The position numbers were made by a program, and so were the translations under genes. 64,000 nt of DNA from Vicinamibacterales bacterium (GTDB taxonomy: Bacteria; Acidobacteriota; Vicinamibacteria; Vicinamibacterales; UBA2999): NCBI GenBank assembly GCA_035649395.1, contig DASRJR010000174.1, forward strand, positions 94,878-158,877, written 5' to 3'. Of this stretch, positions 470 through 15,055 are shown in pieces. How positions within the stretch are numbered: the stretch's first letter is position 1; each line of letters opens with the position of its first letter. A model generated the notes under the pieces. It saw only the letters and a list, made by a program, of their open reading frames with translations. It was not told the DNA's origin and searched no databases.

Positions 470-615
470 AAGCGCTCAAGTGAGGCCGTGTGTGACGGCC
501 CGAGTAATGTGTCCACGGGTCCCCAACACGGAGACCCTCTCAGTGACCTTCAAAGCCTGTATCGGCTGGAGCCTACTGATCCTTAGGCGCCCTTGTGTCA
601 ATATGTTGGCGCCCC

Positions 616-2820: not shown

Positions 2821-4017
2821 TCAGCACGCCGGCGTGTACGCGGACGAGGGCCGATCCTGACGACGCATCGAGGCGCGGGCGGTGCGGTACGGACCGACCG
2901 GCAGATTGCAGTTCTGCTGATAGAGAAACGCGTGGAATCGCTTGTAGTCGGTCGGCGGCAAACCGAACACGCCAAGCAGGGCACGATAGCTCCCGCGCGT
3001 GTGCTCGAGTCCACGATGAATCAACGCCGCGAGATCATCGCGCGTCAGCTCGTGAGCCTTGAACGGCTGGTGAACGACCGTCCAGAAGCTCTCACCAGCG
3101 ATCAGGCGCTCCCACAGTCGATCGGCCGTGCCCGAACCCCGATCGATGCGACGCGGCGCGGTCGCGTTCTGGTCCGGTACGAACGACACGTTCGGTACCG
3201 ACACCGTCGGCGCAGTTTCGCGGCCTCCGCGAATCTCAATCGGCAGATCATCAGCTGTGATCGCGCGATCCCATTCGCGGACGACGAGGCGCTCCGCCAG
3301 GTTCTTCAGTTCGCGCACGTTGCCCGGCCAGCCGTAGGCCACCAGCAGCTGTTCAGCGTCCGCCGTCAGCTCGGGGCAATGCAGCCGATGCGTATCGGCG
3401 GCCCGCCGCAGGTAGTGTTGGAGCAGCAGCAGTACGTCCTCGGCTCGCTCGCGGAGTGGCGGCACGTGAATCTGGATGATGTTCAAACGGAAGTAGAGAT
3501 CCTCGCGGAAGACACCCGCGTCGATCCGCTCGCGTAGATTGCGATTCGTCGCCGTGATCAGACGCACGTCCGAACGGCCGGTCACTCCGTCGACGCCGAT
3601 TGTCTGGATCTCTCCGGTCTCGGCGAAGCGAAGCAACACCGCCTGCATGCGCAAACTCATCTCGCCGAGTTCGTCCAGGAACAAGGTGCCGCGATCGGCC
3701 TGTCGAACGAGGCCCGGCTTGTCACGGTACGCTCCGGTGAAACTTCCGCGCGCGTGTCCGAACAGTTCTGACTCGAGCAGCGTCTCCGGAATCCCACTGC
3801 AGTTCACCGCGACGAACGCACGCGCGACACGTGAACTGTGTTCGTGGATGAGGCGCGCGACGACTTCCTTGCCCGCACCGGTTTCCCCCAGCACGAGCAC
3901 TTTGGCGTCGGTTCTGGCAGCCGCTTCGATCTCGCGACGCAACGCAACGATCGCAGGGCTCTCGCCGAGCAGGACGGGAAGGTTCTTATTTATCCGTGGG
4001 ACAGAAAAGCTCGACAT
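2821..4017 (-). CDS. sigma-54-interacting activator (bEBP-1), PspF-like: AAA+ plus HTH, no N-terminal sensory domain
   Basis: Walker A GETGAGKE, GSFTGAYRDK sigma-54 contact loop, GWPGNVREL. The C-terminal RGSYRALLGVFGLPPTDYKRFHAFL is a Fis-HTH-like variant. I prefer ATG 4017 (MSSFSVP) because it has GGAGAAG upstream. The ORF opens at 4116. Confidence 0.85.
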   Translation of the reverse strand: MSSFSVPRINKNLPVLLGESPAIVALRREIEAAARTDAKVLVLGETGAGKEVVARLIHEHSSRVARAFVAVNCSGIPETLLESELFGHARGSFTGAYRDKPGLVRQADRGTLFLDELGEMSLRMQAVLLRFAETGEIQTIGVDGVTGRSDVRLITATNRNLRERIDAGVFREDLYFRLNIIQIHVPPLRERAEDVLLLLQHYLRRAADTHRLHCPELTADAEQLLVAYGWPGNVRELKNLAERLVVREWDRAITADDLPIEIRGGRETAPTVSVPNVSFVPDQNATAPRRIDRGSGTADRLWERLIAGESFWTVVHQPFKAHELTRDDLAALIHRGLEHTRGSYRALLGVFGLPPTDYKRFHAFLYQQNCNLPVGPYRTARASMRRQDRPSSAYTPAC

Positions 4018-4343: not shown

Positions 4344-4351
4344 ACTGAGCG

Positions 4352-5773
4352 CTAGGCCGGCCTGACGGTGCCGTCCGGCCCGGTTGTGCTGACGCGATTC
4401 TTGCCGGCGCGCTTGGCGTGATACAGCGCGCGATCGGCGCGTTCGATCAGATCTCGCGCGGTCACACCGGGCGGCGACACCGCGACTCCAATGCTTGCCG
4501 TCACGTGGAGCGACGCGAGATCGGGCTCACTCCGCTGGTAGGCCTCGACGCGCTGCCGGATGCGTTCGGCGATCGTCCCCGCGCTCTCCGCGTTGCCACC
4601 AGGCATCATCACCGCGAACTCCTCGCCGCCGAAACGCGTGCACACATCGAAGATGCGCACAGAGCGTCGGAGGATTTCAGAGATGTCGCGGATCACCATG
4701 TCGCCAGCGATGTGTCCGAAGCGATCGTTGATGCTCTTGAATCCATCGAGGTCGACCATGAGCAACGCGACTGATGTTGCTTGTCGAATCGCGCGATGAA
4801 GTTCTTCCTCGAGGCGCGCTTGAAAGTATCGTCGGTTGAAGAGACCGCTCACGGGATCGATCACGGCCGCCTGCGCGTACGCTTGCGCCTCGCGCCACAC
4901 GCGCTCGCGACCGAGCGCAATGGCAACAGGCGCGAGCAACGTCCGCACCGCTGCGACGTCATCGTGCGTGTAGGGCCCCTCGGCAATGCGATCGGTCAGC
5001 GAGAGCACACCGAGCGCATCGGTGCCCGCGACGATCGGGACAACGGCAAACGAGTTCGTGCGATAACGCGAGCGTCGTCGCTCACGTCCGGCGGTTGCCG
5101 ACACATCGGCGACCAGAAGTGGAAGCCGCGATTGAAATACAGTGCCGATGACACCAGCGCCCGGCGCGATTCGCAGATGTTCGACGAGCGCGCGTGGGTA
5201 TCCGTACGTCGACACGATCGACAGTTCACCCTCGGGCGTGGCGACGGCGAGCGACGCCATCCGACTCGGCACCGCCTGCACCACGTGCTGGAGCACGACG
5301 TCGGCAACAGATGCGAGTCCGGTCGTATCTGCGAGCGCGCGTGTCAGTCGATGCGTCAACACGTCGACCGAAAGCGTCGCGACCGGTTCCGGCTCGTGTC
5401 CCGCCAGCAGGCTGTGCCCGAGCTCGCGCAACACGGGGGCTGATTGAGTCCAGTTGCCTTCGATCACGAGAAACACCGGCGAGCGCGGCGCCGTGGCAAG
5501 GCTCACGAGTGTCCACTCGACATCCCCCGTGGTCCAGACACCGATCCCGAGATCCGGTTCGGCACTGAGGCGATCGAACGTGTGCGACTCACCATTCATC
5601 GGGACCGCGAGGATCGGATCGGGCCGCGATTCGGCTGCAAGCACCCACACGCCGCCATGCTTGCCCGCCACCGCGGCCTTCGCGTCGATGATGCGATCGA
5701 TCAGGTTGACCAGCTGCTGGAGAAAGGCGCGTGGGCCGGCGTTCTCGGGTACGCGCTGATACACCCGTAGCAA
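4352..5773 (-). CDS. diguanylate cyclase, GAF-GGDEF, with intact active site and I-site
   Basis: A GAF-like segment is followed by DPVSGLFNRRYF...LLMVDLDGFKSINDRFGHIAGD...RIFDVCTRFGGEEFAVMM. RIFD lies 5 residues before GGEEF, which is the RxxD I-site position. Confidence 0.9.
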   Translation of the reverse strand: MLRVYQRVPENAGPRAFLQQLVNLIDRIIDAKAAVAGKHGGVWVLAAESRPDPILAVPMNGESHTFDRLSAEPDLGIGVWTTGDVEWTLVSLATAPRSPVFLVIEGNWTQSAPVLRELGHSLLAGHEPEPVATLSVDVLTHRLTRALADTTGLASVADVVLQHVVQAVPSRMASLAVATPEGELSIVSTYGYPRALVEHLRIAPGAGVIGTVFQSRLPLLVADVSATAGRERRRSRYRTNSFAVVPIVAGTDALGVLSLTDRIAEGPYTHDDVAAVRTLLAPVAIALGRERVWREAQAYAQAAVIDPVSGLFNRRYFQARLEEELHRAIRQATSVALLMVDLDGFKSINDRFGHIAGDMVIRDISEILRRSVRIFDVCTRFGGEEFAVMMPGGNAESAGTIAERIRQRVEAYQRSEPDLASLHVTASIGVAVSPPGVTARDLIERADRALYHAKRAGKNRVSTTGPDGTVRPA

Positions 5774-5965
5774 CGCGAGCCGTTGCTCAGGAGAGAGGGC
5801 GCGAGGACCAGCCGCCGGCAGCCGTGGGTGTGGGTTCGCCAGTTGAAATCCCTTGTCGAGGAGACATTCCCCCGCGTTTGGGAATCCTGCTTCACCGCTC
5901 TGAACCGCGCGATCACCTTTTCAGGCGCAGTCCAGTAGGGTTATTGATCACTGCCAGCTGAGCTG

Positions 5966-5980
5966 GCAACAAGCGTGCCT
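5966..5980 (-). promoter_or_regulatory. sigma-54 promoter-like motif P1 (upstream of the GGDEF gene)
   Basis: The minus strand reads aGGCACG-CTTG-TTGC against the consensus TGGCACG-N4-TTGC, with correct spacing. It lies about 190 nt upstream of start 5773. Confidence 0.5.
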
Positions 5981-6098
5981 TACACAAAACTGCAAAGGCC
6001 TGTAACTGTTGAGTGACGTCTGGGATATGGCGGTCGCCCCCGGCCGAGGCGACTCGCCATGTCGGATGTGGGACCAGTGACCTGCGCTTGGCCTGAGC

Positions 6099-7214
6099 TT
6101 AGCGGTATTCCTTGAACGGGATCTGGCAGTCGTGCTTCCGCAGGAAGTTCAAAAAGCGCTTGTAGTCGCGGGCCTCCATGTTGAACAACCGCGCCACGAT
6201 CTTATAGTTCCCGCGAGCCTCTTCGAGTCCGCGTCGCACCACCTCGCGCACGTTTGCGCGCGTGATTTCGCGATCCATGAACAGCGGATACACCGCGGTC
6301 CAGAACGACTCGTGCTGCTCGATCATTCGTTTGTAGAGATCGTCGGCAACCGTCCGTCGTCGCTCGCGCTTCGGACGAAGCAGCACTGCGTCGTAAGAGC
6401 GGATCTCGGAAGACAGATGCTCGACTTCGATCGTGGGTCCCGAGACGGTGACGACGAGTCGTTCGATGACGTTCTCGAGCTCGCGCACGTTGCCCGGCCA
6501 CGAGTATTCCGAGAGGGCCTTCATCGCTTCGGGCGAAATGGCGGTGATGTGACCGCGGTTCCCCGAGAACTGCGCCAGGAATTCGTTCGCGAGTACCGGG
6601 ATGTCTTCGCGGCGGTCGCGCAACGGTGGCACGACGATGTGAATCACGTTCAGCCGATAGAACAAGTCCTCACGGAAGGTGCCCTGCTTGATCATTTCGC
6701 GGAGATCGCGGTTCGTGGCTGCGATCACGCGAACGTTGACGATGCGGCCACTCCCATCGGCACCGACCTTCTGGATCTCGCCAGTCTCGAGAAAACGAAG
6801 CAGTAGCCCTTGCATTCGCAGCGTCATCTCGCCGACTTCGTCGAGGAAGATCGTGCCCATGTGGGCAGTCTCGAGCTTGCCGGGCTTGTCGCGATACGCT
6901 CCCGTGAAACTCCCCTTGACGTGGCCGAACAACTCAGATTCGAGCAACGTTTCCGGCAGGCCGGCGCAATTGACCGGCGCGAAGACGTGCCCGGCCCGAG
7001 GGCCGCGCGAGTGAATGGCGCGGGCGACGATTTCCTTGCCGACGCCGCTCTCCCCGGTGATCAACACCTTGGCGTCGGAACGCGCGACGCGATCGATCTC
7101 CTGCTCGAGCGCGGCGACCTCGGCACTGCGGCCGGTCAACTGAACATGAGACCGCGGGCGTAGCGCGCCGACCGGGCTTACGCGATGAGAGGTCTCAGCA
7201 ACACCATCAATCAT
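6099..7214 (-). CDS. sigma-54-interacting activator (bEBP-2), PspF-like, no sensory domain
   Basis: GESGVGKE, GSFTGAYRDKPGK, SWPGNVREL, and C-terminal SFWTAVYPLFMDREITR...RGNYKIVARLFNMEARDYKRFLNFLRKH. ATG 7214 overlaps the stop of the upstream PilZ gene. Confidence 0.9.
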   Translation of the reverse strand: MIDGVAETSHRVSPVGALRPRSHVQLTGRSAEVAALEQEIDRVARSDAKVLITGESGVGKEIVARAIHSRGPRAGHVFAPVNCAGLPETLLESELFGHVKGSFTGAYRDKPGKLETAHMGTIFLDEVGEMTLRMQGLLLRFLETGEIQKVGADGSGRIVNVRVIAATNRDLREMIKQGTFREDLFYRLNVIHIVVPPLRDRREDIPVLANEFLAQFSGNRGHITAISPEAMKALSEYSWPGNVRELENVIERLVVTVSGPTIEVEHLSSEIRSYDAVLLRPKRERRRTVADDLYKRMIEQHESFWTAVYPLFMDREITRANVREVVRRGLEEARGNYKIVARLFNMEARDYKRFLNFLRKHDCQIPFKEYR

Positions 7215-7518
7215 TGTTTATGAACCGTTCAATAAGACGCCGATGCTCCGGCGACATCCCCACGAACGTAGCGCCGATGCGATAACCCGAACCGGCTTCG
7301 GACGGCGTCGACACGCGCTGCACCTGAATGTCCGCCGAGAACGGCGCCCCGGCCAGAGTGAACCGGAGGCTTCCTCGCGCACCCGGATTGAGCAGATGCG
7401 CCGACTGCAGCAACACCCCTGCGGAGCTGATGTCGATCACGCGCACACTCATGTTGGCGGGAAGGTTCACGAACTCGCCGCCGACTTCATGCCGTGGGGA
7501 TCGTCGACGCTCTTCCAT
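7207..7518 (-). CDS. PilZ-domain protein (PilZ-A), canonical c-di-GMP-binding motifs
   Basis: RRSPR matches RxxxR and DISSAG matches DxSxxG. I prefer ATG 7518 because it has GGAGGA 9 nt upstream. The ORF opens at GTG 7575, so the alternative start cannot be excluded. Confidence 0.8.
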   Translation of the reverse strand: MEERRRSPRHEVGGEFVNLPANMSVRVIDISSAGVLLQSAHLLNPGARGSLRFTLAGAPFSADIQVQRVSTPSEAGSGYRIGATFVGMSPEHRRLIERFINND

Positions 7519-7601
7519 CCCTCGAGGTCCTCCGAAAGTGCTCGGAAAGGTACGGAGCCCGGCGCTCTCGCACACGATTTGAGCCTTATGGCGTGACGGG
7601 C

Positions 7602-7617
7602 TGCAAGCAAGTCGCCA
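7602..7617 (-). promoter_or_regulatory. sigma-54 promoter-like motif P2 (upstream of the PilZ-A / bEBP-2 pair)
   Basis: The minus strand reads TGGCGAC-TTGC-TTGCA. The GG and TTGCA elements are at consensus spacing. Confidence 0.5.
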
Positions 7618-7782
7618 TTGTTGGGCAGACCTTTTTCTTCCACGGCAACTTATTACAACGTAATGGCTTATGCCTGAAGGTGGTCCTCAAAGCACAACCG
7701 ATCCGATCCTAGAAAGTCTGGCCGAATCTGGGCTAAGTCACCTGACAGGGAAGACTTTCCGCGCCGTGACGAGACCGGAGTC

Positions 7783-8106
7783 CTACGAGGACGGCCAGTC
7801 GGTGGCGGCAGCGAGCGCCGGAGGTATGGACAAGAACTCGACGCCGACGAGGTACCGGATAGGTTCATCGGGTCCGGAAACTCGCCTGACATGACGCACC
7901 CGGGCGTCCACGGTGATGTCGTGACCGTGTAGCTTCAGGTGGAGAGGCTGGATGGAATCGGGGGGCATGGCCACCGGCGACGTAATCAGTGCTCCATCCC
8001 GGCTGATGTTGACGACTCGCGCGGGCTCGGACAATTCGAGCGTGGCCCAGAGGGCGCCAACGACTTCGAGACGAACGCGCGCACGACGGTCTCCCAACGC
8101 CATCAC
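7783..8106 (-). CDS. PilZ-domain protein (PilZ-B), canonical motifs
   Basis: RARVR matches RxxxR and NISRDG matches NxSxxG. The start (GTG 8106 or ATG 8103) overlaps TGA 8105..8103 of the upstream gene. Confidence 0.8.
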   Translation of the reverse strand: MMALGDRRARVRLEVVGALWATLELSEPARVVNISRDGALITSPVAMPPDSIQPLHLKLHGHDITVDARVRHVRRVSGPDEPIRYLVGVEFLSIPPALAAATDWPSS

Positions 8107-9827
8107 GACCGCCTCCCGTTGCTGAGACCAGAATTCGTGCTCGTTCCCGAGTGCTCACCGCCGAGGGCGTCGGCTCGCGCGTCGCGAACGAGACCATCAG
8201 CACGACCGACCCCTGGTGTTCGACTCGCCACACCGATCAGGATCGATCCGGCCCCGGGCACGCCGCCGACGATCGCGCGCAGCCGGTCAGCGATGCCCTT
8301 CGCATGATGGGTGGTCGTGTCGTGCATCAACAGTCCTATTTCGCCTTCTGCGAGCGTTCCGGCGAGATCCAATGGCCGGAGTTGCCCTCGCATGCCAGCG
8401 ACCCATCGTTGCGTCGCGCCAGGGAAGAACACCGCGTCGCGCACCAGCAGCACGACGACGGTGACCGGAGAGCCGCGCTCGAGAGCCTCCTTGGCCGACC
8501 GCTCAATCACTTCATGGAAACCGCGCGGGGCAGCGCGTCGATCCCGTCCCCCGGCCATGGCGCGGAGTGCAATCGGCGCCCATGCGACAAACATGCTCGC
8601 CGCCGCATTCACCACGTCCTGGTCCCGCGGCGTGAACGGCAGGCTCTCGCTTCGCGCCACGGCGATGGTCGTAGTGTAATGCCGTTCCGATCGCGAGACC
8701 ATCACCAAACGTTCGTCGCTCGACGTGTCGTGCACCCCAGCGCCCGGCGCGGTGACGCGTAATCCGTGGCCGCCGTTACTCGATTCAATCGCAAGCGATG
8801 CCGACGTCCCGCCGACTTCGACTCTCAAGTCGTCGAGCGCTCGCGCTGCGCGGGACTCGATCCGTTCATCGCCATCGGCCAGTCGCCGGCTGATCGCGAC
8901 CATCACGCGAGAAGCCGCTTCGGAGGCTGCCAGGGCGAGCGCGCACTCGAGCAACGCGAGATACGCGCCGAGCCGCTGCACGTCTTGCGCCCCGATCTCG
9001 CCGGTAAACACCAGCAGCCAGGAACGTCCCTCACGCCGCTTGAAGCGTTTGACGTAGACGTCTTCACCAACAGCGAGGCCGAATCGATCGAGGTGGCCCT
9101 GCGGCAGCCGGGTGAGATCGCCGATCTCGGGCAATCCAACCGTCGGGATCGTTGTGGGACGCTCGGTGGTTCTCGTGCCGGGCAGTGTGACGTCGCGCAC
9201 GAACGAGTCGTCGTCGACTTCGATGTATCCCGAGACCTCGATGTCGTGCCAGACGGCGACGGCTTCGCCAAACAGACGCACGAGCTCTCGGTCGGATTCA
9301 CGCTCCGCCGCTTGCGATAGAAGGCGCGCCAGCGGCGCGAGCCGACTGATCCCGCTCGCGTGAAAGGCCGGCGGACTCTGTAAGTGGGCTTCAACCGCAG
9401 TCGACAGCCACGAGCCGACGAGCTGCAGCTGTGCTCGGGATGATTCGGCGTCCTGCGACATCGGCAGCGCCCGGGCAAGGACCAGGACGCCCGGTGAACT
9501 GCGCTCCATCGTCACCGGGAGACAGATGATTTGAAGCCCGTGCAACGCGGTTGATTGGGGTTGACGGGATTGGAGCGCGTTCGAAAGGGCGGAGCGGAGA
9601 ACGGCGTCGCCGGGTTCGAGCAACCCCGACACACTGGGCGTCGCGCCCGCAGCGAACGGAAGCAGCGGCGCGTATCGTTTGTCAACCAACTGCAGATCGA
9701 CCTTGAGACGACGGCGCAATTCGAGCAGCCAGTCCCACGACCGCTCGCGCACCGCCGTTTCGAATGCGGAGGGTTCCTGTGTCACAGGTGATGTGCTGTC
9801 GGTGACGACCATCAGCGGGGCGCACAC
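8103..9827 (-). CDS. large sensory-type protein with a C-terminal degenerate GGDEF domain that retains an RxxD I-site
   Basis: The C-terminus VTVVVLLVRDAVFF...RPLDLAGTLAEGEIGLLMHD...ILIGVASR...DARADAL follows the GGDEF fold pattern. The signature is AEGEI instead of GGDEF, and RPLD lies 5 residues upstream. The N-terminal ~400 aa are unassigned and look GAF-like by eye only. I prefer GTG 9827 because GAGGAAG lies upstream; ATG 9812 is possible. The ORF opens at 10124, inside bEBP-3. Confidence 0.7.
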   Translation of the reverse strand: MCAPLMVVTDSTSPVTQEPSAFETAVRERSWDWLLELRRRLKVDLQLVDKRYAPLLPFAAGATPSVSGLLEPGDAVLRSALSNALQSRQPQSTALHGLQIICLPVTMERSSPGVLVLARALPMSQDAESSRAQLQLVGSWLSTAVEAHLQSPPAFHASGISRLAPLARLLSQAAERESDRELVRLFGEAVAVWHDIEVSGYIEVDDDSFVRDVTLPGTRTTERPTTIPTVGLPEIGDLTRLPQGHLDRFGLAVGEDVYVKRFKRREGRSWLLVFTGEIGAQDVQRLGAYLALLECALALAASEAASRVMVAISRRLADGDERIESRAARALDDLRVEVGGTSASLAIESSNGGHGLRVTAPGAGVHDTSSDERLVMVSRSERHYTTTIAVARSESLPFTPRDQDVVNAAASMFVAWAPIALRAMAGGRDRRAAPRGFHEVIERSAKEALERGSPVTVVVLLVRDAVFFPGATQRWVAGMRGQLRPLDLAGTLAEGEIGLLMHDTTTHHAKGIADRLRAIVGGVPGAGSILIGVASRTPGVGRADGLVRDARADALGGEHSGTSTNSGLSNGRRS

Positions 9828-9862
9828 GAGGACTTCCTCGCCGGGCGCAGCTGTATCGTTGT

Positions 9863-9878
9863 TGCAATCGACCCGCCA
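9863..9878 (-). promoter_or_regulatory. sigma-54 promoter-like motif P3 (upstream of the degenerate GGDEF / PilZ-B pair)
   Basis: The minus strand reads TGGCGGG-TCGA-TTGCA at exact consensus spacing. It is about 37 nt upstream of GTG 9827, with the SD GAGGAAG in between. Confidence 0.55.
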
Positions 9879-10000
9879 GACGGTGTGGCGTCGGTCGCCA
9901 TCGACACATCGACAAATTGGGCCAAAAACGTTGATTCTGCCTGCGGAAAGGACACCGGCTGGCAGACAAAAGCACGAGTATCGCGGACATCCCCGCGGCG

Positions 10001-11176
10001 TCAGCCGACGTGCGCCATCGGCTTGCGCAACGCGGCCTTGGCCGGTAATGGCGGCAGTGCTAAGCGCGGCTGTCGCTGCGGCTGAACCGTGCCATGACGG
10101 AATTCCCTGAAGTCGGCCCCGCATTGATGTGCCGCTAGGAAATTGAGGAAGCGCTTGTAGTCCTGACTCGACATGCCGAAGAGCTTCAGTAACGCGCGGT
10201 AGTTCCCTCGCGTCGTCGTCAGCCCGCGCCTCACCAGTTCCCGCATGTCATGTCGAGTGATGTCCCTGGATAGGAACAGCGGATAGATGTGATCCCAGAA
10301 CGAGTAACCCCCGTGAACCAGCGCTGTATACAGCTCGTCGGAAATCTGGGAGCGGCGCTCGCGCATCGGCAATATCGATTGCGCCGGTACACGTACCGTC
10401 TCCGGGAGGTGCGGCACATCGACGACATCGCCGTGAGACAGCCACATCGCCTGCTCGACGACGTTCTGCAGTTCACGGACATTGCCAGGCCAACGATGGC
10501 GACGAAGGCAGATCATCGCCTCCTCAGTGAAGCGAGCGACGCGCCCAGTCCGCTCGATGAAGTGCGCCACGAGCACCGGAATGTCTTCGCGTCGGTCGCG
10601 CAGCGGCGGCACCTCGACATGAATGACCCGCAACCGGTAAAGGAGATCCTCTCGAAACTGACCCGCTGCAATCAGATCGGCCAGATTTCGATTGGTTGCC
10701 GCAATCACCCGCACGTTGACCGTCGTGACGCGCGTATCGGCTCCGACCGCTTGAATCTCTCCGTTCTCGAGAAACCGCAGCAACATCGCCTGCATGCGCA
10801 GGCTCATCTCACCCACCTCGTCGAGGAAGACCGTGCCCCCATGCGCGGCCTGCAGCTTCCCCGCTTTGTCGCGATACGCGCCGGTGAAGCTGCCCTTCAC
10901 GTGCCCGAACAACTCGGACTCGAGTAACGACTCGGTGAGTCCGGCGCAGTTCACCGGAACATAGGGCTGATTCGCGCGGCGCGATCGGAAGTGAATGCGT
11001 CGCGCGATCAGATCCTTGCCGACACCACTCTCCCCAGTAATGAGCACCTTGCCGTCGGAAATGGCAGCGCGATCCGCCGCGGCAACCAGCGCGTGCATCG
11101 ACGCACTCGCGACGATCAGAGATGAACCGGGACCAAGCGCACTTGGCCCCGGTCCAAGGTGAGAATCGGTCGACAT
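10001..11176 (-). CDS. sigma-54-interacting activator (bEBP-3), PspF-like, no sensory domain
   Basis: GESGVGKD, GSFTGAYRDKAGK, RWPGNVREL, and C-terminal SFWDHIYPLFLSRDITR...RGNYRALLKLFGMSSQDYKRFLNFLAAH. I prefer ATG 11176 (MSTDSH) because GGGAG lies 7 nt upstream. Confidence 0.9.
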   Translation of the reverse strand: MSTDSHLGPGPSALGPGSSLIVASASMHALVAAADRAAISDGKVLITGESGVGKDLIARRIHFRSRRANQPYVPVNCAGLTESLLESELFGHVKGSFTGAYRDKAGKLQAAHGGTVFLDEVGEMSLRMQAMLLRFLENGEIQAVGADTRVTTVNVRVIAATNRNLADLIAAGQFREDLLYRLRVIHVEVPPLRDRREDIPVLVAHFIERTGRVARFTEEAMICLRRHRWPGNVRELQNVVEQAMWLSHGDVVDVPHLPETVRVPAQSILPMRERRSQISDELYTALVHGGYSFWDHIYPLFLSRDITRHDMRELVRRGLTTTRGNYRALLKLFGMSSQDYKRFLNFLAAHQCGADFREFRHGTVQPQRQPRLALPPLPAKAALRKPMAHVG

Positions 11177-11247
11177 CAGTGGCTCCCGTCCACGTATGCT
11201 GCGAGTGTGAAATTCTGTTACCTGCTCAAAGCGGCGCACCTTGAGTC

Positions 11248-11263
11248 AGCAAGTTTCACTCCA
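11248..11263 (-). promoter_or_regulatory. weaker sigma-54 promoter-like motif P4 (upstream of bEBP-3)
   Basis: The minus strand reads TGGAGTG-AAAC-TTGCT. The GG and TTGC spacing is correct, but the -24 element is only TGG. Confidence 0.3.
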
Positions 11264-11413
11264 GCCGGCGATTGCGCGTATTCGCGTCGCGGAGCTCAAT
11301 TCGGCGATCTAGTCCTGGCGAAGGCAGACAATTATCGAGTCCGATTTCGGCGACTCTCGTGAAAGTCTCAGCAGAGTTGTTCACGGCTGGTCAAAGTTCG
11401 ACCTCCGCGCCTG

Positions 11414-11722
11414 CTACGCCCGCCACAACGCCGTCCGGAGACTGTGTGTGCCGGGGGGGTTGGTCCAGAGGAATCGCGCGCCGAGGTGGTAGACCGATCC
11501 GGCGCCGGCAATTGGCTGGCATCTGACGATCTGCACGTCATCGACCAGCTCGCGCCCGTCAATCACGACCCGAATCGAGGCGACGGCACCGACATCGAAC
11601 CGGCGTTCGGTCTCGATCAGGCATCCCGAGGCGCTGCAATTGAGCACCCGCATCTGACAGAGTCGTGTGATGATGCCCAGTCGGTCGGCCGCTGGTGCGT
11701 CGCTACTCCCTTCGTCTCTCAT
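11414..11722 (-). CDS. PilZ-like protein (PilZ-C) with NxSxxG but no clear RxxxR
   Basis: NCSASGCLIE matches (D/N)xSxxG, followed by a beta-rich VVIDGRELV...VYHLGARF. ATG 11722 shares one nt with the upstream stop in a TGATG junction. Confidence 0.6.
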   Translation of the reverse strand: MRDEGSSDAPAADRLGIITRLCQMRVLNCSASGCLIETERRFDVGAVASIRVVIDGRELVDDVQIVRCQPIAGAGSVYHLGARFLWTNPPGTHSLRTALWRA

Positions 11723-12027
11723 CAACGTCGTCCCTGATTCAGCAGATCGCCTTCGTGCTCGTCGATCTGCCGTAACCAAAGGCGATGGCGCACGGCTCCG
11801 TCCGTCATGACAGGTCGGCTCTCGACGACCCTGGCCACGTGTGTGGTGCCGTCGTCGAGTGATTCCACGACAACGGTTTCATCGAGCACACCGGCCTCGC
11901 GGCTCATCGCAATCCACTCGCCCTCTGTCCGTTCGGACAAAACCACATCACGCGTCACCCGCATTACGCCTATAGCGCCATCCGCGATCGTCATTCTCGA
12001 ATAGCTACGCCGCCCCAGCATCCACAC
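11722..12027 (-). CDS. hypothetical small protein, first gene of the PilZ-C pair
   Basis: 101-aa ORF (MWMLGRRSYSRMTIADG...). GAGG lies upstream of the alternative ATG at 12021. No family recognised. Confidence 0.45.
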   Translation of the reverse strand: MWMLGRRSYSRMTIADGAIGVMRVTRDVVLSERTEGEWIAMSREAGVLDETVVVESLDDGTTHVARVVESRPVMTDGAVRHRLWLRQIDEHEGDLLNQGRR

Positions 12028-12066
12028 CTCGACTTCGCACGCACGACAGTGTGCGACAACGTCGCT

Positions 12067-12082
12067 GGCAAGGGCGGTGCCG
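12067..12082 (-). promoter_or_regulatory. sigma-54 promoter-like motif P6 (upstream of the hypothetical / PilZ-C pair)
   Basis: The minus strand reads cGGCACC-GCCC-TTGCc with correct spacing. It lies about 40 nt upstream of start 12027/12021. Confidence 0.5.
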
Positions 12083-12231
12083 CACCGTGCATATCTGAAT
12101 TTCGCCGGTTTGTGCCCGATTTGGAGGGGAGACTCGATCGGCCGGCGAGGTCGGTTCGCGTGCCGCGTTGAGCTTTGTCTGCTGGGGATCAGAATGGGTC
12201 TTGACGACCCTCGAAGCGCGCCGTCGGGGCT

Positions 12232-12588
12232 TTACCGCTTGATCGTGGATAACTTCTCGTTGACGAGGGCCACCAGCGCCGAAGGAGAAATTGGTTTGAC
12301 GACGTAGTCGGCGCCCGCTCGACGAGCCTCGGCCTCAAGAACCTGGTCGGGGAAACCGGTCACGATGATCGTCGGAATTGGACGTGGATTGAGCAGGAGC
12401 AGCTGCAGCCCGTTGAAGCCGCCGAGACGCAGATCGGCGATCACCAGGTCCGGGCTCTCGACTTGAACGGCGTGGCGACCCTCCTGATACGTGCTGGTCG
12501 CGATGACCTCGTGGCCTGCGAGGTTCAGCAGCTCACGATAGCCCGCGCGGGTCGCGTCATCATCCTCAACAATAACGATCTTTGCCAT
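12232..12588 (-). CDS. single-domain CheY-like response regulator
   Basis: MAKIVIVEDDD...DLVIADLRLGGFNGLQLL...IVTGF...YVVKP. It has a receiver domain only. Confidence 0.85.
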   Translation of the reverse strand: MAKIVIVEDDDATRAGYRELLNLAGHEVIATSTYQEGRHAVQVESPDLVIADLRLGGFNGLQLLLLNPRPIPTIIVTGFPDQVLEAEARRAGADYVVKPISPSALVALVNEKLSTIKR

Positions 12589-12815
12589 GAGCGCCTCCCC
12601 GCCCCGCTACGCCGATCTGCGTTCGCACTGCATACCGCCCGATGATAGGCCGATTATGTCTTATGCACACGGTGCGCTCGCACATTGAGTTTTCTGGACC
12701 TGTGCGGTTAGTCCGGAAGATCGAGCGAGCGACATTAGGCCGTTGGCTGTGAATTCATGCGTAATCTCGTGCACTATCGCGTACTCTCGGCGCCTATGGT
12801 GAAGCCACGCCGCAT

Positions 12816-12831
12816 GGGCAGTGGCGTTGCA
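12816..12831 (+). promoter_or_regulatory. sigma-54 promoter-like motif P5 (upstream of PilZ-D / pseudo-PilT)
   Basis: The plus strand reads gGGCAGT-GGCG-TTGCA with correct spacing. The GC is only 16 nt before ATG 12846, so either the mRNA is nearly leaderless or the true start is ATG 12882. Confidence 0.4.
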
Positions 12832-12845
12832 CTCAGTATGGTGTC

Positions 12846-13310
12846 ATGAGCGAGCCGCCTGACGACGAATTCTTCGTGTCCATGCCGGACGGCTCCCTCG
12901 ACGACCTGTTCGCGGGCCTCGAAAAGTCGCTCAAGACCGACCCGTCCGAGCCAGCTGCAGCCGCCACGAGGGAACAGGCGCCGCCAACGGCGGACGCCCC
13001 ACCCGCTCGCGCCGAACGTCGACGCGCGCCGCGACGCGAAGCCCACGAGTTCAAAACGGAACTGCGGCTGGCCGTGGCGGGCTTCCCGATGAAGCTCGTC
13101 AACCTATCGTCCACGGGATTATTGGCCGAAACAAGTCAAAGGTTGTGCCCGGGTCGCACGGTCGATGTTTTCCTGCGATACGGCGGCGTTCGCCGCGTGC
13201 TCCGTGCGACCGTGATTCGATCGTCGATGCACGCCGTCGCACCAACGCCGGTGTTCCGGGCGGCACTTCAGTTCGAAGACACGCTTACCTTGCAGGACGC
13301 TGACTTATGA
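12846..13310 (+). CDS. PilZ-domain protein (PilZ-D) with an acidic/Pro-rich N-terminal extension
   Basis: RRAPR matches RxxxR and NLSSTG matches NxSxxG. The stop overlaps the next start in an ATGA junction at 13307-13310. Confidence 0.8.
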   Translation: MSEPPDDEFFVSMPDGSLDDLFAGLEKSLKTDPSEPAAAATREQAPPTADAPPARAERRRAPRREAHEFKTELRLAVAGFPMKLVNLSSTGLLAETSQRLCPGRTVDVFLRYGGVRRVLRATVIRSSMHAVAPTPVFRAALQFEDTLTLQDADL

Positions 13311-15055
13311 GTTTGCTGCCATCGCTGTGCGCGGCCCTCGAGCGGGCGGGTGGACAACGTCTCATCATGCGGGCCGGTGAACGTCCCCACGTGCTTGCGG
13401 GGGACCGTCGCCACGACGTGGCGACGGCGGTCCTGTCGGTCAATGCCGTCGAAGCGCTCGTCGATCAGATCCTTTCGAGCGACAGCCGCCGTGCCCTCGC
13501 CGAGCGCGGTTCGGTCGAAGAGGTGTTGAATACGCCAGCGTTTCCGCAGCCGCTGACCGCGCGCGCCGAGCGCGTCGGCGACGATTTCTGCGTGGAGTTG
13601 CTCGTGACTACGTCGCAGCCAGAGACAGAACCGGTTCCAGTGAGCAAGCCCGATCATGAACCGCAGCCCGTGGCCGCCATCGAGGAGGTCCCCGCAGACC
13701 TCGCATTGGATGAGGCCGGTCCGCTTCCGGTGACGCCCGTCATCGAGACCTTCCAGGGGTCGCACGAGATCGCGCTCAACGTTGCGTCGCCGACGCCGCG
13801 GGAGACGCCTCGCATTGAACCGCATCCGCCTGTGCGCGTCGTCGCTCGCGTCGAAGAACCGGTCCATAAGCCAACCGTCGTCGCCCGCACCGTGAACGCG
13901 CACACTGATCTTCATGGCTGGATCGCGTACGCGTTCGAGCGCGGGTCGACCACGCTGTTCCTGCGCACGGGTGCCCCGCCTGCCGGCCGCATCAACGAGC
14001 GCATTGCACCGATCAGCGACGAGATCGTCGGTCCCTCTGTCTTCGAAGAGATCGCGTCAATCACGACTCGCGGTGGTGACAGCGCGTGGCGCAGTGTGTC
14101 GGATGGCGAGTGGGCGCGCGATCACGCGGACTTTGGGCACGTTACATGCCGCGCGTTCGACGACGATCAAGGCCAGGGCCTGGTCGTTCACCTGGTTCCA
14201 CGCATCACACCAAAGCTGCTGCACAAGCACATACCCCGCCAGGTGCGCACGGCGTGCGAAGGCGACGGCCTCGTCCTCGTCTCGGCTCAAACTGAAGCCG
14301 AGGTCGCGTCGCTCGCCGCCGCGACGGCAGATTGGAGTGGACGCACCCGTGGCGGATATCTGATCGCGTTGCACCGCCGAGGCGCTCGGACCGAGCTCGC
14401 GGGCGCATTCGTCAGCCAGCGCACGGTGAGCGGCGGCGACGCGGATTTCGCCACAGCGATCCGGCGCGCGGCACACGAGGGACCTGACATTCTGCTTGTG
14501 GTCGGCCCACAAACGGAAACGACGCTTCACGAAGCCGTCCTCGCGGCGGCATCAGGCCGGCTGGTGATCGTCGGAGTGGTCGCGCCGACGGCCACGCAGG
14601 CGTTGCAGACGGTGCTCGGTCACAGCGGACTCGATCGCGACGCCCACGTGCGTCGGGCACTTGCCTCGTCCTTCCGCGTCGCGGTCGGCTATCGAACGCT
14701 GCGGCGGCTGGGTGGGGGACGGATTCTTGTTCAGGACATCGTCACGGCGTCGAAGGACGTCCGCGCGCTGGTTGAAGCCGCCGATTTCAAGGGCCTGACC
14801 GCGTTGATTCGCCGCGGCGTGTCGGGGATGCGCTCGGTCGACGAGGCGCTTGCACGCGCGACCAGACGTCGTCAGGTGTCGCTGCGAGAGGCGGCGGCGC
14901 ATGCCGATGATCGCCGTCAGTTCGTCGCGTTGGTCCGCATGCGCGCACGTGCGAGCCATGGCGCGAGAGCCCGAGACATTCACGGACCGATCTCGCTCGA
15001 CGAACGCAGCAGCGGCCGCGCCGCGAGCGGCGGCAAGCGCGCATCACGCGCCTGA
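13307..15055 (+). CDS. PilT/T2SS-E-fold protein with degenerate ATPase motifs (predicted pseudo-ATPase)
   Basis: The C-terminal half is collinear with PilT: GSTTLFLRTGAPPAGRI, GLVLVSAQTEAEVASLAAAT in place of GLVLVTGPTGSGKST, GPDILLVVGPQTETT in place of DPDIILVGEMRDxET, and SGRLVIVGVVAP in place of TGHLVFxTLHT. No GK[ST] Walker A occurs anywhere in the protein. The N-terminus holds a second PilT-N-like segment and a Pro/Glu-rich linker. Confidence 0.8.
   Translation: MSLLPSLCAALERAGGQRLIMRAGERPHVLAGDRRHDVATAVLSVNAVEALVDQILSSDSRRALAERGSVEEVLNTPAFPQPLTARAERVGDDFCVELLVTTSQPETEPVPVSKPDHEPQPVAAIEEVPADLALDEAGPLPVTPVIETFQGSHEIALNVASPTPRETPRIEPHPPVRVVARVEEPVHKPTVVARTVNAHTDLHGWIAYAFERGSTTLFLRTGAPPAGRINERIAPISDEIVGPSVFEEIASITTRGGDSAWRSVSDGEWARDHADFGHVTCRAFDDDQGQGLVVHLVPRITPKLLHKHIPRQVRTACEGDGLVLVSAQTEAEVASLAAATADWSGRTRGGYLIALHRRGARTELAGAFVSQRTVSGGDADFATAIRRAAHEGPDILLVVGPQTETTLHEAVLAAASGRLVIVGVVAPTATQALQTVLGHSGLDRDAHVRRALASSFRVAVGYRTLRRLGGGRILVQDIVTASKDVRALVEAADFKGLTALIRRGVSGMRSVDEALARATRRRQVSLREAAAHADDRRQFVALVRMRARASHGARARDIHGPISLDERSSGRAASGGKRASRA

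What the first reader, a model, noticed from the sequence alone, without database searches (positions are those of the whole stretch)
5966..12831. Six correctly spaced sigma-54 promoter motifs precede almost every transcription unit of the island, including activator genes themselves
All six motifs, read on the coding strand, place GG and TTGC at the exact consensus spacing of TGGCACG-N4-TTGCW. P1 at 5980..5966 is aGGCACGcttgTTGCc. P2 at 7617..7602 is TGGCGACttgcTTGCa. P3 at 9878..9863 is TGGCGGGtcgaTTGCa. P4 at 11263..11248 is TGGAGTGaaacTTGCt. P5 at 12816..12831 is gGGCAGTggcgTTGCa. P6 at 12082..12067 is cGGCACCgcccTTGCc. Five of the six also have GGC. Each lies in an intergenic gap in the orientation of the downstream gene. 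P2 and P4 precede operons that encode bEBPs, implying positive autoregulation or a cascade. bEBP-1 and the CheY-like gene have no such motif. Finding six 8-10 nt matches in roughly 1.5 kb of spacer DNA is unlikely by chance.
Basis: partly seen in the sequence, partly recalled or inferred. Interest (0 to 1): 0.7.

Follow-up and report, generated by a model that had tools for sequence, protein, structure and literature searches.

The report
Conserved sigma-54 promoters in c-di-GMP island
Six short DNA motifs in a soil acidobacterium's gene cluster are very likely real sigma-54 promoters, conserved across dozens of related species, that wire several activator genes and cyclic-di-GMP signalling genes into one circuit; this is a solid but unsurprising kind of regulation in a lineage nobody has studied.

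Summary
All six motifs are in the sequence as quoted; P1's coordinates are one base short. Each lies in a spacer and faces the downstream gene. GG-N8-TTGC occurs six times, correctly oriented, in 1.88 kb of island spacers, against 0.60 expected (0 of 20,000 shuffles reach six). Its density there is about 7 times that of coding DNA. The other 4.35 kb of intergenic DNA in the window has one hit, and it faces no gene.

The window comes from an uncultured Vicinamibacterales bacterium (Acidobacteriota). In species-level relatives, all six sites recur at syntenic positions. In full-spacer alignments the -24 and -12 blocks stay fixed while flanks drift; the N4 spacer varies clearly in P2, P3 and P5.

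All four island bEBPs keep the sigma-54-contact loop (GAFTGA or GSFTGA). The bEBP-1 and CheY genes indeed lack a credible motif.

New here:
- A shared upstream box (TTGTCTGCC / GGCAGACAA) sits at fixed distances from P2, P3, P4 and P6. It is probably an enhancer.
- Three bEBPs are sensor-less, like PspF.
- bEBP-2 is translationally coupled to an intact PilZ c-di-GMP receptor.
- P5 sits 13-26 nt (mostly 16) before its start codon, implying a near-leaderless transcript.

Not tested: rpoN itself, transcription start sites, and any autoregulation or cascade.

Verdict: observation confirmed, interpretation supported; a new member of a known kind.

The parts
5965..5980 (-). P1, sigma-54-type promoter AGGCACG-CTTG-TTGCC before the GAF-GGDEF diguanylate cyclase gene
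   Evidence: 10/12 match to consensus. [ACG]GG[CT]A[CT][GA]-N4-TTGCC found at the syntenic position in at least 17 species-level loci. Absent in L011, where the spacer is only 90 nt.
7602..7617 (-). P2, sigma-54-type promoter TGGCGAC-TTGC-TTGCA before the PilZ-bEBP-2 operon
   Evidence: 9/12 match. In 27 distinct species-level sites TGGC and TTGCA are invariant, N4 varies and the downstream flank carries about 0 bits. The -12 C is 85 nt before the ATG at 7518, which has a GGAGG Shine-Dalgarno.
9863..9878 (-). P3, sigma-54-type promoter TGGCGGG-TCGA-TTGCA before the 569-aa protein / PilZ operon
   Evidence: 10/12 match. TGGC-N7-TTGCA in 28 distinct sites; N4 0.56 bits and flanks 0.25 bits. The -12 C is 52 nt before the ATG at 9812.
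11248..11263 (-). P4, sigma-54-type promoter TGGAGTG-AAAC-TTGCT before bEBP-3 (non-canonical A at the GGC position)
   Evidence: 9/12 match. TGGA[GT]TGA[TA]A[AC]TTGCT in all 9 loci that keep bEBP-3. The -12 C is 73 nt before the ATG at 11176.
12067..12082 (-). P6, sigma-54-type promoter CGGCACC-GCCC-TTGCC before the 80/99-aa protein / PilZ-like operon
   Evidence: 9/12 match. CGG[CT]ACC-N4-TTGC[CG] in 7 distinct sites.
12816..12831 (+). P5, sigma-54-type promoter GGGCAGT-GGCG-TTGCA before the PilZ / PilT-like operon; the -12 C is only 16 nt before the ATG
   Evidence: 9/12 match. CGGCA[GA]-N5-GTTGC[AT] in 13 distinct sites. The distance from the -12 C to the conserved ATG is 13-26 nt, mode 16, in 15 loci, with no Shine-Dalgarno except in L008.
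9961..9971 (-). Upstream box TTTTGTCTGCC, about 115 nt upstream of the P3 start point (candidate enhancer / UAS)
   Evidence: TTTGTCT[GC]C[CA] at a fixed -89 to -95 from the motif start in most of 26 loci. GCAGACAA occurs only in island spacers within the window.
11323..11331 (-). Upstream box TTGTCTGCC at about -92 from P4 (candidate UAS)
   Evidence: At exactly -68 from the motif start in 8 of 9 loci, with variable surroundings.
12174..12182 (-). Upstream box GCAGACAAA (reverse orientation) at about -127 from P6 (candidate UAS)
   Evidence: CAGACAA at -99 to -101 from the motif start in 7 of 7 loci.
7624..7641 (-). Promoter-proximal element GGAAGAAAAAGGTCTGCC next to P2 (-50 to -32); in relatives it is a palindrome GG[CT]AGAC-AAAC-GTCT[GA]CC
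   Evidence: Unanchored alignment and 27-site profile. The core AGACAAACGTCT is conserved in the closer relatives.
7712..7759 (-). Distal inverted pair GAAAGTCT (7759-7752) ... AGACTTTC (7719-7712), 128-168 nt upstream of P2; AGACTTTC also occurs at 11368-11361 upstream of P4
   Evidence: The pair is present in all 8 loci aligned.
6099..7214 (-). bEBP-2: sensor-less sigma-54 activator (AAA+ core, GSFTGA loop, C-terminal helical HTH-like domain)
   Evidence: Pfam Sigma54_activat 4e-65. Aligns to the PspF model end to end but below its cutoff. AF2 model and Foldseek hits to FleQ, ZraR and NtrC1. Loop intact in 37 of 39 orthologs.
7207..7518 (-). PilZ protein (103 aa) with RxxxR and DxSxxG, overlapping the bEBP-2 start by 8 nt
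   Evidence: Pfam PilZ 8e-11; motifs. An intact PilZ ORF abuts or overlaps bEBP-2 in 27 of 39 species-level loci.
10001..11176 (-). bEBP-3: paralog of bEBP-2 (57% identical) with the same architecture
2821..4017 (-). bEBP-1: third sensor-less paralog with no sigma-54 motif upstream; the conserved upstream block contains TTGACC and GGCAGAC (4067-4061)
4352..5764 (-). GAF-GGDEF diguanylate cyclase (intact GGEEF); the start codon is uncertain because the frame is open to 5920
   Evidence: Pfam GGDEF 4e-45.
8103..9812 (-). 569-aa protein of unknown family with a degenerate GGDEF-like C-terminus, followed by a translationally coupled PilZ gene (7783-8103)
   Evidence: hhalign against the island's GGDEF domain: 72% probability, E = 3.5e-5, GGEEF replaced by AEGEI. 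PilZ motifs.
12846..15055 (+). P5 operon: PilZ (154 aa, intact motifs) plus a 582-aa divergent PilT/PilU-like protein that has lost Walker A
595..1989 (+). NtrC-type response-regulator bEBP (REC-AAA+-HTH_8, GAFTGA), the fourth activator of the cluster

Best explanation
Core claim. The six motifs are genuine sigma-54 (RpoN) -24/-12 promoters. They belong to a chromosomal gene cluster conserved in soil Vicinamibacterales (Acidobacteriota). The cluster lies about 25 kb from dnaA and is not a mobile island.

What the promoters drive. The five minus-strand promoters and P5 drive short, translationally coupled operons: a GAF-GGDEF cyclase (P1); PilZ plus bEBP-2 (P2); a degenerate-GGDEF protein plus PilZ (P3); bEBP-3 (P4); PilZ plus a PilT-like pseudo-ATPase (P5); and a small protein plus a PilZ-like protein (P6).

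Expected mechanism (established knowledge of the promoter class). RNA polymerase carrying sigma-54 would bind these sites as a closed complex. It would fire only when a hexameric AAA+ activator, bound upstream, hydrolyses ATP and contacts sigma-54 through its G[A/S]FTGA loop.

Inferred steps, not shown:
- The shared upstream box TTGTCTGCC / GGCAGACAA, at fixed distances from P3, P4 and P6 and as a palindrome abutting P2, is the enhancer bound by the C-terminal helical domain of the three sensor-less bEBPs. Their last helices are nearly identical (DYKRFLNFL in bEBP-2 and bEBP-3; DYKRFHAFL in bEBP-1).
- bEBP-1, which has no sigma-54 promoter, and the phosphorylatable NtrC-type bEBP supply the entry points.
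- bEBP-2 and bEBP-3 are then produced from sigma-54 promoters, giving a cascade or feedback loop.
- c-di-GMP made by the P1 cyclase is read by the PilZ proteins.
For: Shown directly:
- The sequences are present, spaced as in the consensus, oriented and intergenic.
- Six sites are observed against 0.60 expected, with none of 20,000 shuffles reaching six.
- The motif is about 7 times denser in island spacers than in coding DNA, and there is no oriented hit in the rest of the window's intergenic DNA.
- Alignments of whole spacers, not anchored on the motif, show the -24 and -12 blocks as the conserved columns.
- P2 is conserved in 27 distinct species-level sites with a variable N4 and uninformative flanks.
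- P3 has 28 distinct sites, P1 18, P5 13, P4 9 and P6 7.
- Where another gene follows bEBP-2, a -24/-12 motif is still present. EPS-export and Flp-pilin genes in relatives also carry such motifs.
- The four bEBPs have intact Walker A and G[A/S]FTGA. The loop is kept in 37 of 39 orthologs, and all 77 bEBP loops that matched the search pattern read G[A/S]FTGA.
- No sigma-70 consensus promoter lies in any island spacer.

Support for the inferred parts:
- The upstream boxes sit at fixed positions.
- GCAGACAA occurs in three island spacers and nowhere else in the 64 kb.
- The bEBP-2 C-terminal domain is a confident helical module. Foldseek alignments to ZraR and NtrX run through their DNA-binding domains, and the protein aligns end to end with the PspF, NorR and NifA models.
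- The PilZ proteins have intact c-di-GMP motifs.
- PilZ is translationally coupled to bEBP-2 in 27 of 39 species.
Against: - rpoN was not found in the window or in 0.98 Mb of relatives' DNA, so its presence in this genome is only inferred.
- There are no transcription start data.
- The enrichment criterion was defined after seeing the sites.
- P4 has A instead of the usually conserved C after GG. In P4, P6 and P1 the N4 spacer is also conserved, so conservation there is less specific to the -24/-12 blocks.
- P1 is missing in one relative (L011).
- P5 leaves almost no leader, which is unusual for a sigma-54 promoter.
- The 9-mer box is not clearly present upstream of the putative output promoters (EPS clusters) in relatives.
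- In P2 the box lies too close to the promoter (-50 to -32) to be a classic looping enhancer.
Confidence: 0.85

Rival explanations
1. Only some of the six are working sigma-54 promoters. The best matches (P1, P2, P3 and probably P5) are functional. P4 (TGGA) and P6 are weak, or are sites conserved for another reason, such as an overlapping regulator site.
For: P4 lacks the C of GGC. In P4 and P6 the N4 spacer is nearly as conserved as the core (1.68 and 1.46 bits), and both are known from only 7-9 loci. The conservation could therefore reflect a different or additional constraint.
Against: Both keep GG-N8-TTGC exactly in every locus that retains the downstream gene. Both have the shared upstream box at a fixed, enhancer-like distance. 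Neither spacer has an alternative sigma-70 consensus promoter.
Confidence: 0.12
2. The conserved TGGC...TTGC elements are bound by some other DNA-binding protein rather than by sigma-54. For example, a regulator could recognise direct repeats one helical turn apart (T[GT]GC-N7-TTGC).
For: The two blocks resemble each other and are 11 bp apart, a geometry used by winged-helix response regulators. rpoN has not been seen.
Against: The spacing and sequence fit the sigma-54 consensus at 9-10 of 12 positions. The sites always lie 13-200 nt upstream of a start codon and face it. The cluster encodes four sigma-54 activators with conserved sigma-54-contact loops. Pfam assigned no OmpR/PhoB-type domain to any island protein.
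Confidence: 0.03
3. The motifs are chance matches in GC-rich spacers that were picked out by eye.
For: The criterion (GG plus TTGC) is loose and was chosen post hoc. 26 such matches occur in coding DNA of the same window.
Against: None of 20,000 composition-matched shuffles gives six oriented hits. All six recur at syntenic positions in distinct species while the flanking bases drift.
Confidence: 0.01

Closest known systems
Canonical sigma-54 (-24/-12) promoters, consensus TGGCACG-N4-TTGCW (Barrios et al. 1999, from my own knowledge); comparative sigma-54 regulons linked to the 'bacterial exterior' (Francke et al. 2011, PMC3162934)
   Same: GG and GC exactly 10 bp apart, 9-10 of 12 consensus positions matched, co-located bEBP genes, and conserved upstream boxes at enhancer-like distances. 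In relatives the same kind of motif precedes exopolysaccharide-export and Flp-pilin genes, which fits the 'exterior' theme.
   Different: The lineage (Vicinamibacterales) has no experimental sigma-54 work that I could find. Several sites deviate at -26 or -23 (A/C/G instead of T; TGGA in P4). P5 leaves almost no leader.
Myxococcus xanthus enhancer-binding-protein cascades, in which bEBP genes are themselves transcribed from sigma-54 promoters (Giglio et al. 2011, from my own knowledge; theme present in papers listed)
   Same: bEBP genes (bEBP-2, bEBP-3) sit behind sigma-54 promoters in a cluster with several paralogous bEBPs. This is the architecture needed for activator cascades or autoregulation.
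   Different: Here the bEBPs are sensor-less and are embedded among c-di-GMP genes. No expression data exist, so the order and sign of regulation are unknown.
PspF-PspA and HrpR/S-HrpV: sensor-less bEBPs controlled in trans by a partner protein (from my own knowledge)
   Same: bEBP-1, -2 and -3 have only about 20-40 residues before the AAA+ core and a C-terminal HTH-like domain. bEBP-2 aligns to the PspF model over its full length. A small protein is co-transcribed with it.
   Different: bEBP-2 is not a PspF ortholog (251.5 bits against a cutoff of 443.55). The candidate partner is a PilZ c-di-GMP receptor, not PspA or HrpV. No interaction has been shown.
c-di-GMP-responsive bEBPs FleQ, FlrA, FlrC and VpsR (PMC8125075, PMC6158489, PMC12799141)
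   Same: Second-messenger control of sigma-54-type activators linked to biofilm and exopolysaccharide genes. FleQ is the best structural match of the bEBP-2 AAA+ domain.
   Different: In those systems c-di-GMP binds the activator itself. Here the obvious receptors are separate PilZ proteins, and the FleQ N-terminal domain is absent. Direct c-di-GMP binding by these bEBPs was not tested.

Membership tests
Sigma-54-dependent (-24/-12) promoter | GG and GC dinucleotides exactly 10 bp apart (GG-N10-GC), with the extended consensus TGGCACG-N4-TTGCW | tested here: met
   All six sites have the exact spacing and match 9-10 of 12 specified positions.
Sigma-54-dependent (-24/-12) promoter | Located upstream of a gene, in its orientation, and outside coding DNA | tested here: met
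   Gene calls, Pfam and distances from the -12 C to start codons of 16-202 nt.
Sigma-54-dependent (-24/-12) promoter | More frequent than chance and than in coding DNA | tested here: met
   Six observed against 0.60 expected, with 0 of 20,000 shuffles reaching six. Density 1.6 against 0.225 per kb of strand.
Sigma-54-dependent (-24/-12) promoter | Selective conservation of the -24 and -12 elements in orthologous spacers | tested here: met
   The case is strongest for P2 and P3 (27-28 distinct sites, variable N4 and flanks) and weaker for P4 and P6 (7-9 sites, N4 also conserved).
Sigma-54-dependent (-24/-12) promoter | The genome encodes sigma-54 (rpoN) | not testable with these tools
   No RpoN box in the window or in 0.98 Mb of relatives' loci. 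Indirect support comes from 77 pattern-matched bEBP loops, all G[A/S]FTGA.
Sigma-54-dependent (-24/-12) promoter | Cognate AAA+ activator(s) with a GAFTGA-type loop | tested here: met
   Four bEBPs in the window, with GAFTGA or GSFTGA.
Sigma-54-dependent (-24/-12) promoter | Transcription starts about 12 nt downstream of the GC and depends on rpoN and a bEBP | not testable with these tools
   Needs 5'-end mapping and genetics.
Sigma-54-dependent (-24/-12) promoter | Upstream activator sites (enhancer) about 70-150 bp upstream | tested here: inconclusive
   Conserved box TTGTCTGCC / GGCAGACAA at fixed distance for P3, P4 and P6 and a proximal palindrome for P2. No box was identified for P1 or P5, and binding is untested.
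PspF (TIGR02974) / trans-regulated sensor-less bEBP | Score above the equivalog cutoff of the PspF model | tested here: not met
   251.5 bits against a cutoff of 443.55. The resemblance is in architecture only.
PspF (TIGR02974) / trans-regulated sensor-less bEBP | No N-terminal sensory domain; AAA+ core followed by a C-terminal HTH | tested here: met
   Alignment of the paralogs, the AF2 model and full-length alignment to the PspF model.
PspF (TIGR02974) / trans-regulated sensor-less bEBP | Activity gated by a separate partner protein | not testable with these tools
   The only evidence is genomic: an intact PilZ ORF is coupled to bEBP-2 in 27 of 39 species.
FleQ-type c-di-GMP-binding bEBP | FleQ N-terminal domain and direct c-di-GMP binding by the AAA+ domain | tested here: not met
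   There is no N-terminal domain. The AAA+ fold matches FleQ, but direct binding was not assessed.
PilZ c-di-GMP receptor | RxxxR and [D/N]xSxxG motifs in a PilZ-domain protein | tested here: met
   Met for 7207-7518, 7783-8103 and 12846-13310. The protein at 11414-11722 lacks RxxxR.

The most novel reading that the evidence does not exclude
The three PspF-like, sensor-less bEBPs are gated in trans by stand-alone PilZ proteins. The clearest candidate is the PilZ translationally coupled to bEBP-2. In this reading c-di-GMP reaches sigma-54 transcription through a separate receptor acting as a partner switch, not by binding the activator as in FleQ, FlrA or VpsR. Because the cyclase, the PilZ proteins and two of the bEBPs are themselves behind sigma-54 promoters that share one enhancer box, the cluster would form a self-reinforcing c-di-GMP / sigma-54 switch. 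One of its promoters (P5) would produce a leaderless mRNA.
Probability: 0.3. Interest if true: 0.7.

Novelty: new member of a known kind. Interest (0 to 1): 0.42.

Why it matters
Vicinamibacterales are abundant soil bacteria, the genomes compared here are all uncultured MAGs, and I found no published work on sigma-54 regulation in them. This cluster offers a conserved, testable regulatory circuit: six predicted sigma-54 promoters, a candidate enhancer sequence, four activators, one cyclase and several c-di-GMP receptors. In relatives it sits beside exopolysaccharide-export genes. It therefore gives concrete targets for reporter, footprinting and binding experiments on how these bacteria might switch surface or biofilm traits. 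If the PilZ-bEBP partnership is real, it would add a new route by which c-di-GMP controls sigma-54 transcription.

Tried and rejected
- rpoN: I searched six-frame translations of the window and of 0.98 Mb of fetched loci for the RpoN box and found nothing. The only genome-contig scan had gone to bEBP-2, so the MAGs themselves could not be searched.
- Rfam at gathering thresholds over the whole window, looking for a riboswitch in the long P1 leader: only a tRNA at 57253-57339.
- Sigma-70 consensus scan of the island: one hit, inside the bEBP-2 coding region on the wrong strand; terminator-like hits were no more frequent than in shuffles.
- A weak hairpin plus T-run at 9985-9973 overlaps the P3 box. 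I rejected a terminator reading because the stem is not conserved, and the same box occurs without a T-run at P4 and inverted at P6.
- The 9-mer box upstream of putative output promoters (EPS, Flp, glycosyltransferase, sigma-70-family gene) in relatives: no consistent match.
- PilZ-bEBP adjacency in 20 non-acidobacterial loci: none convincing.
- 569-aa versus 582-aa proteins as paralogs: no similarity.
- The hit at 51047 (TGGTTCAAAAGTTGCA) looked intergenic by composition but lies inside glmU.
- Literature searches for PilZ-controlled bEBPs and for sigma-54 in Acidobacteria found nothing relevant. The Francke et al. survey does not mention Acidobacteria in its main text.
- I did not build a literature PWM, because no frequency table was available offline. 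Consensus-match counting was used instead.

Full report
**Observation.** All six strings are in the window on the stated strands. The only slip is that P1 spans 5980..5965, not 5980..5966. Each site has GG and TTGC at the spacing of TGGCACG-N4-TTGCW and matches 9-10 of the 12 specified positions. Five of six have GGC; P4 has GGA.

**Gene map.** The map comes from gene calls on near-identical metagenome contigs and from Pfam.
- NtrC-type bEBP, 595-1989 (+).
- bEBP-1, 2821-4017 (-).
- GAF-GGDEF cyclase, 4352-5764 (-).
- bEBP-2, 6099-7214 (-), overlapped by 8 nt by a PilZ gene, 7207-7518 (-).
- PilZ, 7783-8103 (-), coupled to a 569-aa protein, 8103-9812 (-).
- bEBP-3, 10001-11176 (-).
- PilZ-like protein, 11414-11722 (-), coupled to an 80/99-aa protein, 11722-11964 or 12021 (-).
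- CheY, 12232-12588 (-).
- PilZ, 12846-13310 (+), coupled to a 582-aa protein, 13307-15055 (+).

Every motif lies in a spacer and faces the next gene.

**Is it more than chance?**
- GG-N8-TTGC occurs 33 times in the 128 kb of strand.
- In the 1,880 nt of island spacers there are six correctly oriented hits. The mean in 20,000 dinucleotide-preserving shuffles is 0.60. No shuffle reached six, and the Poisson P is about 4e-5.
- Density per kb of strand is 1.6 in island spacers and 0.225 in coding DNA.
- The window's remaining 4.35 kb of intergenic DNA has a single hit, in a convergent gap facing no gene. That DNA surrounds dnaA, gyrB, yidC, ATP synthase, glmS and glmU.
- The strict pattern TGGC-N7-TTGCW occurs twice in 64 kb, and those two are P2 and P3.
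- The loose criterion was set after seeing the sites, so I treat this P-value as optimistic and rely on conservation as the independent test.

**Origin and relatives.** The exact bEBP-2 protein is on many soil metagenome contigs. The closest genomes are uncultured Vicinamibacterales / Acidobacteriota MAGs. I fetched seven loci with 82-96% bEBP-2 identity and about 40 acidobacterial species representatives with 58-96% identity.

**Conservation.** MAFFT alignments of the whole orthologous spacers, not anchored on the motif, show the -24 and -12 blocks as the invariant columns.

| Promoter | Conserved form | Distinct sites | Notes |
|---|---|---|---|
| P2 | TGGC…TTGCA | 27 | N4 takes many forms (TTGC, TCGC, TCAC, TTGA, CTGA, GGGT, ATGC and more); the 30 nt downstream carry about 0 bits |
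| P3 | TGGC-N7-TTGCA | 28 | N4 0.56 bits, flanks 0.25 bits |
| P1 | [ACG]GG[CT]A[CT][GA]-N4-TTGCC | 18 | Absent in L011, whose spacer is only 90 nt |
| P5 | CGGCA[GA]-N5-GTTGC[AT] | 13 | |
| P4 | TGGA[GT]TGA[TA]A[AC]TTGCT | 9 | Every locus that keeps bEBP-3 |
| P6 | CGG[CT]ACC-N4-TTGC[CG] | 7 | |

The anchored sites were selected for GG and TTGC, so the roughly 2-bit core is partly by construction. The informative points are that such a motif is found at the syntenic place in nearly every locus that retains the gene, and that the flanks are not conserved. For P1, P4 and P6 the N4 spacer is also largely conserved (1.70, 1.68 and 1.46 bits), so the case there is somewhat weaker.

Where a different gene follows bEBP-2 (L027, L030, L031, L072), a TGGT-N7-GTTGCA motif still precedes it. 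In L009 and L012, motifs precede exopolysaccharide-export, glycosyltransferase and Flp-pilin genes.

**The partner machinery.**
- All four bEBPs have Walker A and the sigma-54-contact loop: GAFTGA in the NtrC type and GSFTGA in the three short ones.
- The loop is intact in 37 of 39 bEBP-2 orthologs; the other two gave no match to the search pattern. All 77 bEBP loops that matched the pattern in those loci read G[A/S]FTGA.
- By contrast, VpsR works with sigma-70 and lacks the residues needed to contact sigma-54 (PMC6158489).
- rpoN itself is not in the window or in the 0.98 Mb fetched. I could not search the MAGs, so this refutation test remains open.
- No sigma-70 consensus promoter lies in any island spacer.

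**The negative claim.** There is no GG-N10-GC at all upstream of bEBP-1. Upstream of CheY there is only a 6/12 match that overlaps its ribosome-binding site. The bEBP-1 upstream region is strongly conserved but different: it has a TTGACC hexamer and a GGCAGAC element.

- The 8-mer GCAGACAA occurs in three island spacers and nowhere else in the 64 kb.
- P4 has [A/T]TGTCTGCC exactly 68 nt before the motif in 8 of 9 loci.
- P6 has CAGACAA at -99 to -101 in 7 of 7 loci.
- P3 has TTTGTCT[GC]C[CA] at -89 to -95 in most of 26 loci.
- P2 is abutted, at about -50 to -32, by a palindrome GG[CT]AGAC-AAAC-GTCT[GA]CC. It also has a distal inverted pair GAAAGTCT…AGACTTTC at -168 and -128.
- The surrounding bases drift, so these are constrained sites. 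For P3, P4 and P6 the positions are those expected of bEBP enhancers.

**The three short bEBPs.**
- They have no N-terminal sensory domain and share a roughly 90-residue C-terminal domain.
- AlphaFold2 predicts that domain with confidence (pLDDT 86-94) as a helical module ending in an HTH-like helix trio.
- Foldseek alignments to ZraR and NtrX extend through their DNA-binding domains.
- bEBP-2 aligns end to end with the PspF, NorR and NifA models, all below their cutoffs.
- The last helix is DYKRFLNFL in bEBP-2 and bEBP-3 and DYKRFHAFL in bEBP-1. The paralogs could therefore share DNA targets.
- That these proteins bind the boxes is inference.

**The c-di-GMP context.**
- The cyclase has an intact GGEEF.
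- Three PilZ proteins have both RxxxR and [D/N]xSxxG.
- An intact PilZ ORF overlaps or abuts the bEBP-2 start in 27 of 39 species, and in none of 20 non-acidobacterial bEBP loci.
- The 569-aa protein has a degenerate GGDEF-like C-terminus: hhalign 72% probability, E = 3.5e-5, AEGEI in place of GGEEF.
- The 582-aa protein is a divergent PilT/PilU relative that has lost Walker A.
- I found no report of a stand-alone PilZ protein controlling a bEBP. The known cases bind c-di-GMP directly.

**Mechanism.** Most likely, sigma-54 holoenzyme occupies P1-P6 and is activated by the island's bEBPs bound at the shared boxes. bEBP-1, which has no sigma-54 promoter, and the phosphorylatable NtrC-type bEBP would be the entry points. 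bEBP-2 and bEBP-3 would then be produced from sigma-54 promoters, giving a cascade or feedback loop. c-di-GMP from the P1 cyclase would be read by the PilZ proteins. The promoter assignment is well supported; the direction and sign of regulation, and the role of PilZ, are inferred.

**P5.** The -12 C lies 13-26 nt (mode 16) before a conserved ATG (N-terminus MSD…) in 15 species, and only L008 (+26) has a Shine-Dalgarno. With initiation about 12 nt after the -12 C, the leader would mostly be about 1-9 nt. That would be an unusual, near-leaderless sigma-54 transcript.

**Comparison and novelty.** This is a standard promoter class (consensus from Barrios et al. 1999, recalled from memory). Its gene associations fit the 'bacterial exterior' theme of Francke et al. 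(PMC3162934). The placement of bEBP genes behind sigma-54 promoters resembles the Myxococcus bEBP cascades. The short bEBPs work like PspF or HrpR/S but are not members of the PspF equivalog. I rate it a new member of a known kind, in an unstudied lineage, with one potentially new variant: PilZ-gated bEBPs.

**Scores.** Confidence that the motifs are sigma-54 promoters is 0.85. Interest is 0.42.

Noticed in passing
window 12816-12848 (+); L013, L007, L010, L011, L016, L018, L021-L023, L025, L028, L029, L046: The -12 C of P5 is 13-26 nt (mode 16) before the conserved ATG of the PilZ gene, with no Shine-Dalgarno in between except in L008. This implies a leaderless or near-leaderless sigma-54-dependent mRNA.
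   Followed up: partly
window 9961-9971, 11323-11331, 12174-12182, 7624-7641, 4061-4067: A shared box TTGTCTGCC / GGCAGACAA lies at fixed distances upstream of P3, P4 and P6, as a palindrome next to P2, and as GGCAGAC about 45 nt before the bEBP-1 start. GCAGACAA occurs nowhere else in the 64 kb.
   Followed up: yes
window 13307-15055 (+): The 582-aa protein is a divergent PilT/PilU-family relative. Walker A is replaced (GLVLV-SAQTEAEVAS) and there is an extra ~200-residue N-terminal region. It is translationally coupled to a PilZ protein and is probably a pseudo-ATPase.
   Followed up: partly
window 8103-9812 (-): The 569-aa protein has no Pfam family apart from a weak GAF hit. Its C-terminus aligns to the island's GGDEF domain with the active site degenerate (AEGEI in place of GGEEF).
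   Followed up: partly
window 5765-5920 (-); L013, L010, L014, L016, L017, L021, L022, L025, L028: The GAF-GGDEF reading frame stays open and is alignable at the protein level for about 40-60 codons upstream of the called start, but this window has no ATG, GTG or TTG there. The true start, and therefore the P1 leader length (about 35-190 nt), is uncertain.
   Followed up: partly
L001 17468-17483, just outside the window start; also L013 17626, L010 17460, L011 17481, L007 18155: A conserved sigma-54-type motif TGGTAC-N5-GTTGC[CT] precedes a sigma-70-family sigma factor gene next to the cluster. This suggests a sigma-54 to alternative-sigma link.
   Followed up: no
window 4019-4351 (-): The bEBP-1 upstream region has a strongly conserved ~110-nt block (GCGCAAAAGCGTGATCTTT…GTTGACCTTAGTCTC…AAAGGCAGACTTATTCCC) with a -35-like TTGACC but no recognisable -10. 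The promoter type is unknown.
   Followed up: partly
L009 11374-21104; L012 2171-2427 and 12318-16805: In more distant relatives the PilZ-bEBP-2 pair lies next to exopolysaccharide export and biosynthesis clusters (Poly_export, Wzz/GNVR, glycosyltransferases) and a Flp pilin gene, each preceded by its own TGGC-N7/8-TTGC motif.
   Followed up: partly
L026 (= L008; CAZDLW010000002.1) and L043 (VFZH01000016.1): These records are titled 'uncultured Bifidobacteriaceae bacterium' and 'Acidimicrobiia bacterium'. L026/L008 carries the Vicinamibacterales-type cluster (85% bEBP-2 identity, with P1, P2 and P5). L043 has a 68% bEBP-2 match and TGGC-type motifs upstream. The MAG labels are probably wrong or the contigs mis-binned.
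   Followed up: no
window 21400-64000: The rest of the window is origin-proximal housekeeping DNA: Wzt-type ABC transporter, ATP synthase, mnmG, yidC, dnaA at 38158-39507, dnaN, gyrB, uvrD, glmS, glmU and a tRNA at 57253-57339. The 'island' is therefore a conserved chromosomal neighbourhood, not a mobile element.
   Followed up: partly
window 7203-7214, 8103, 11722, 13307-13310: Every two-gene unit in the cluster is translationally coupled. The overlaps are 8, 1, 1 and 4 nt; the 4-nt one reads ATGA.
   Followed up: no
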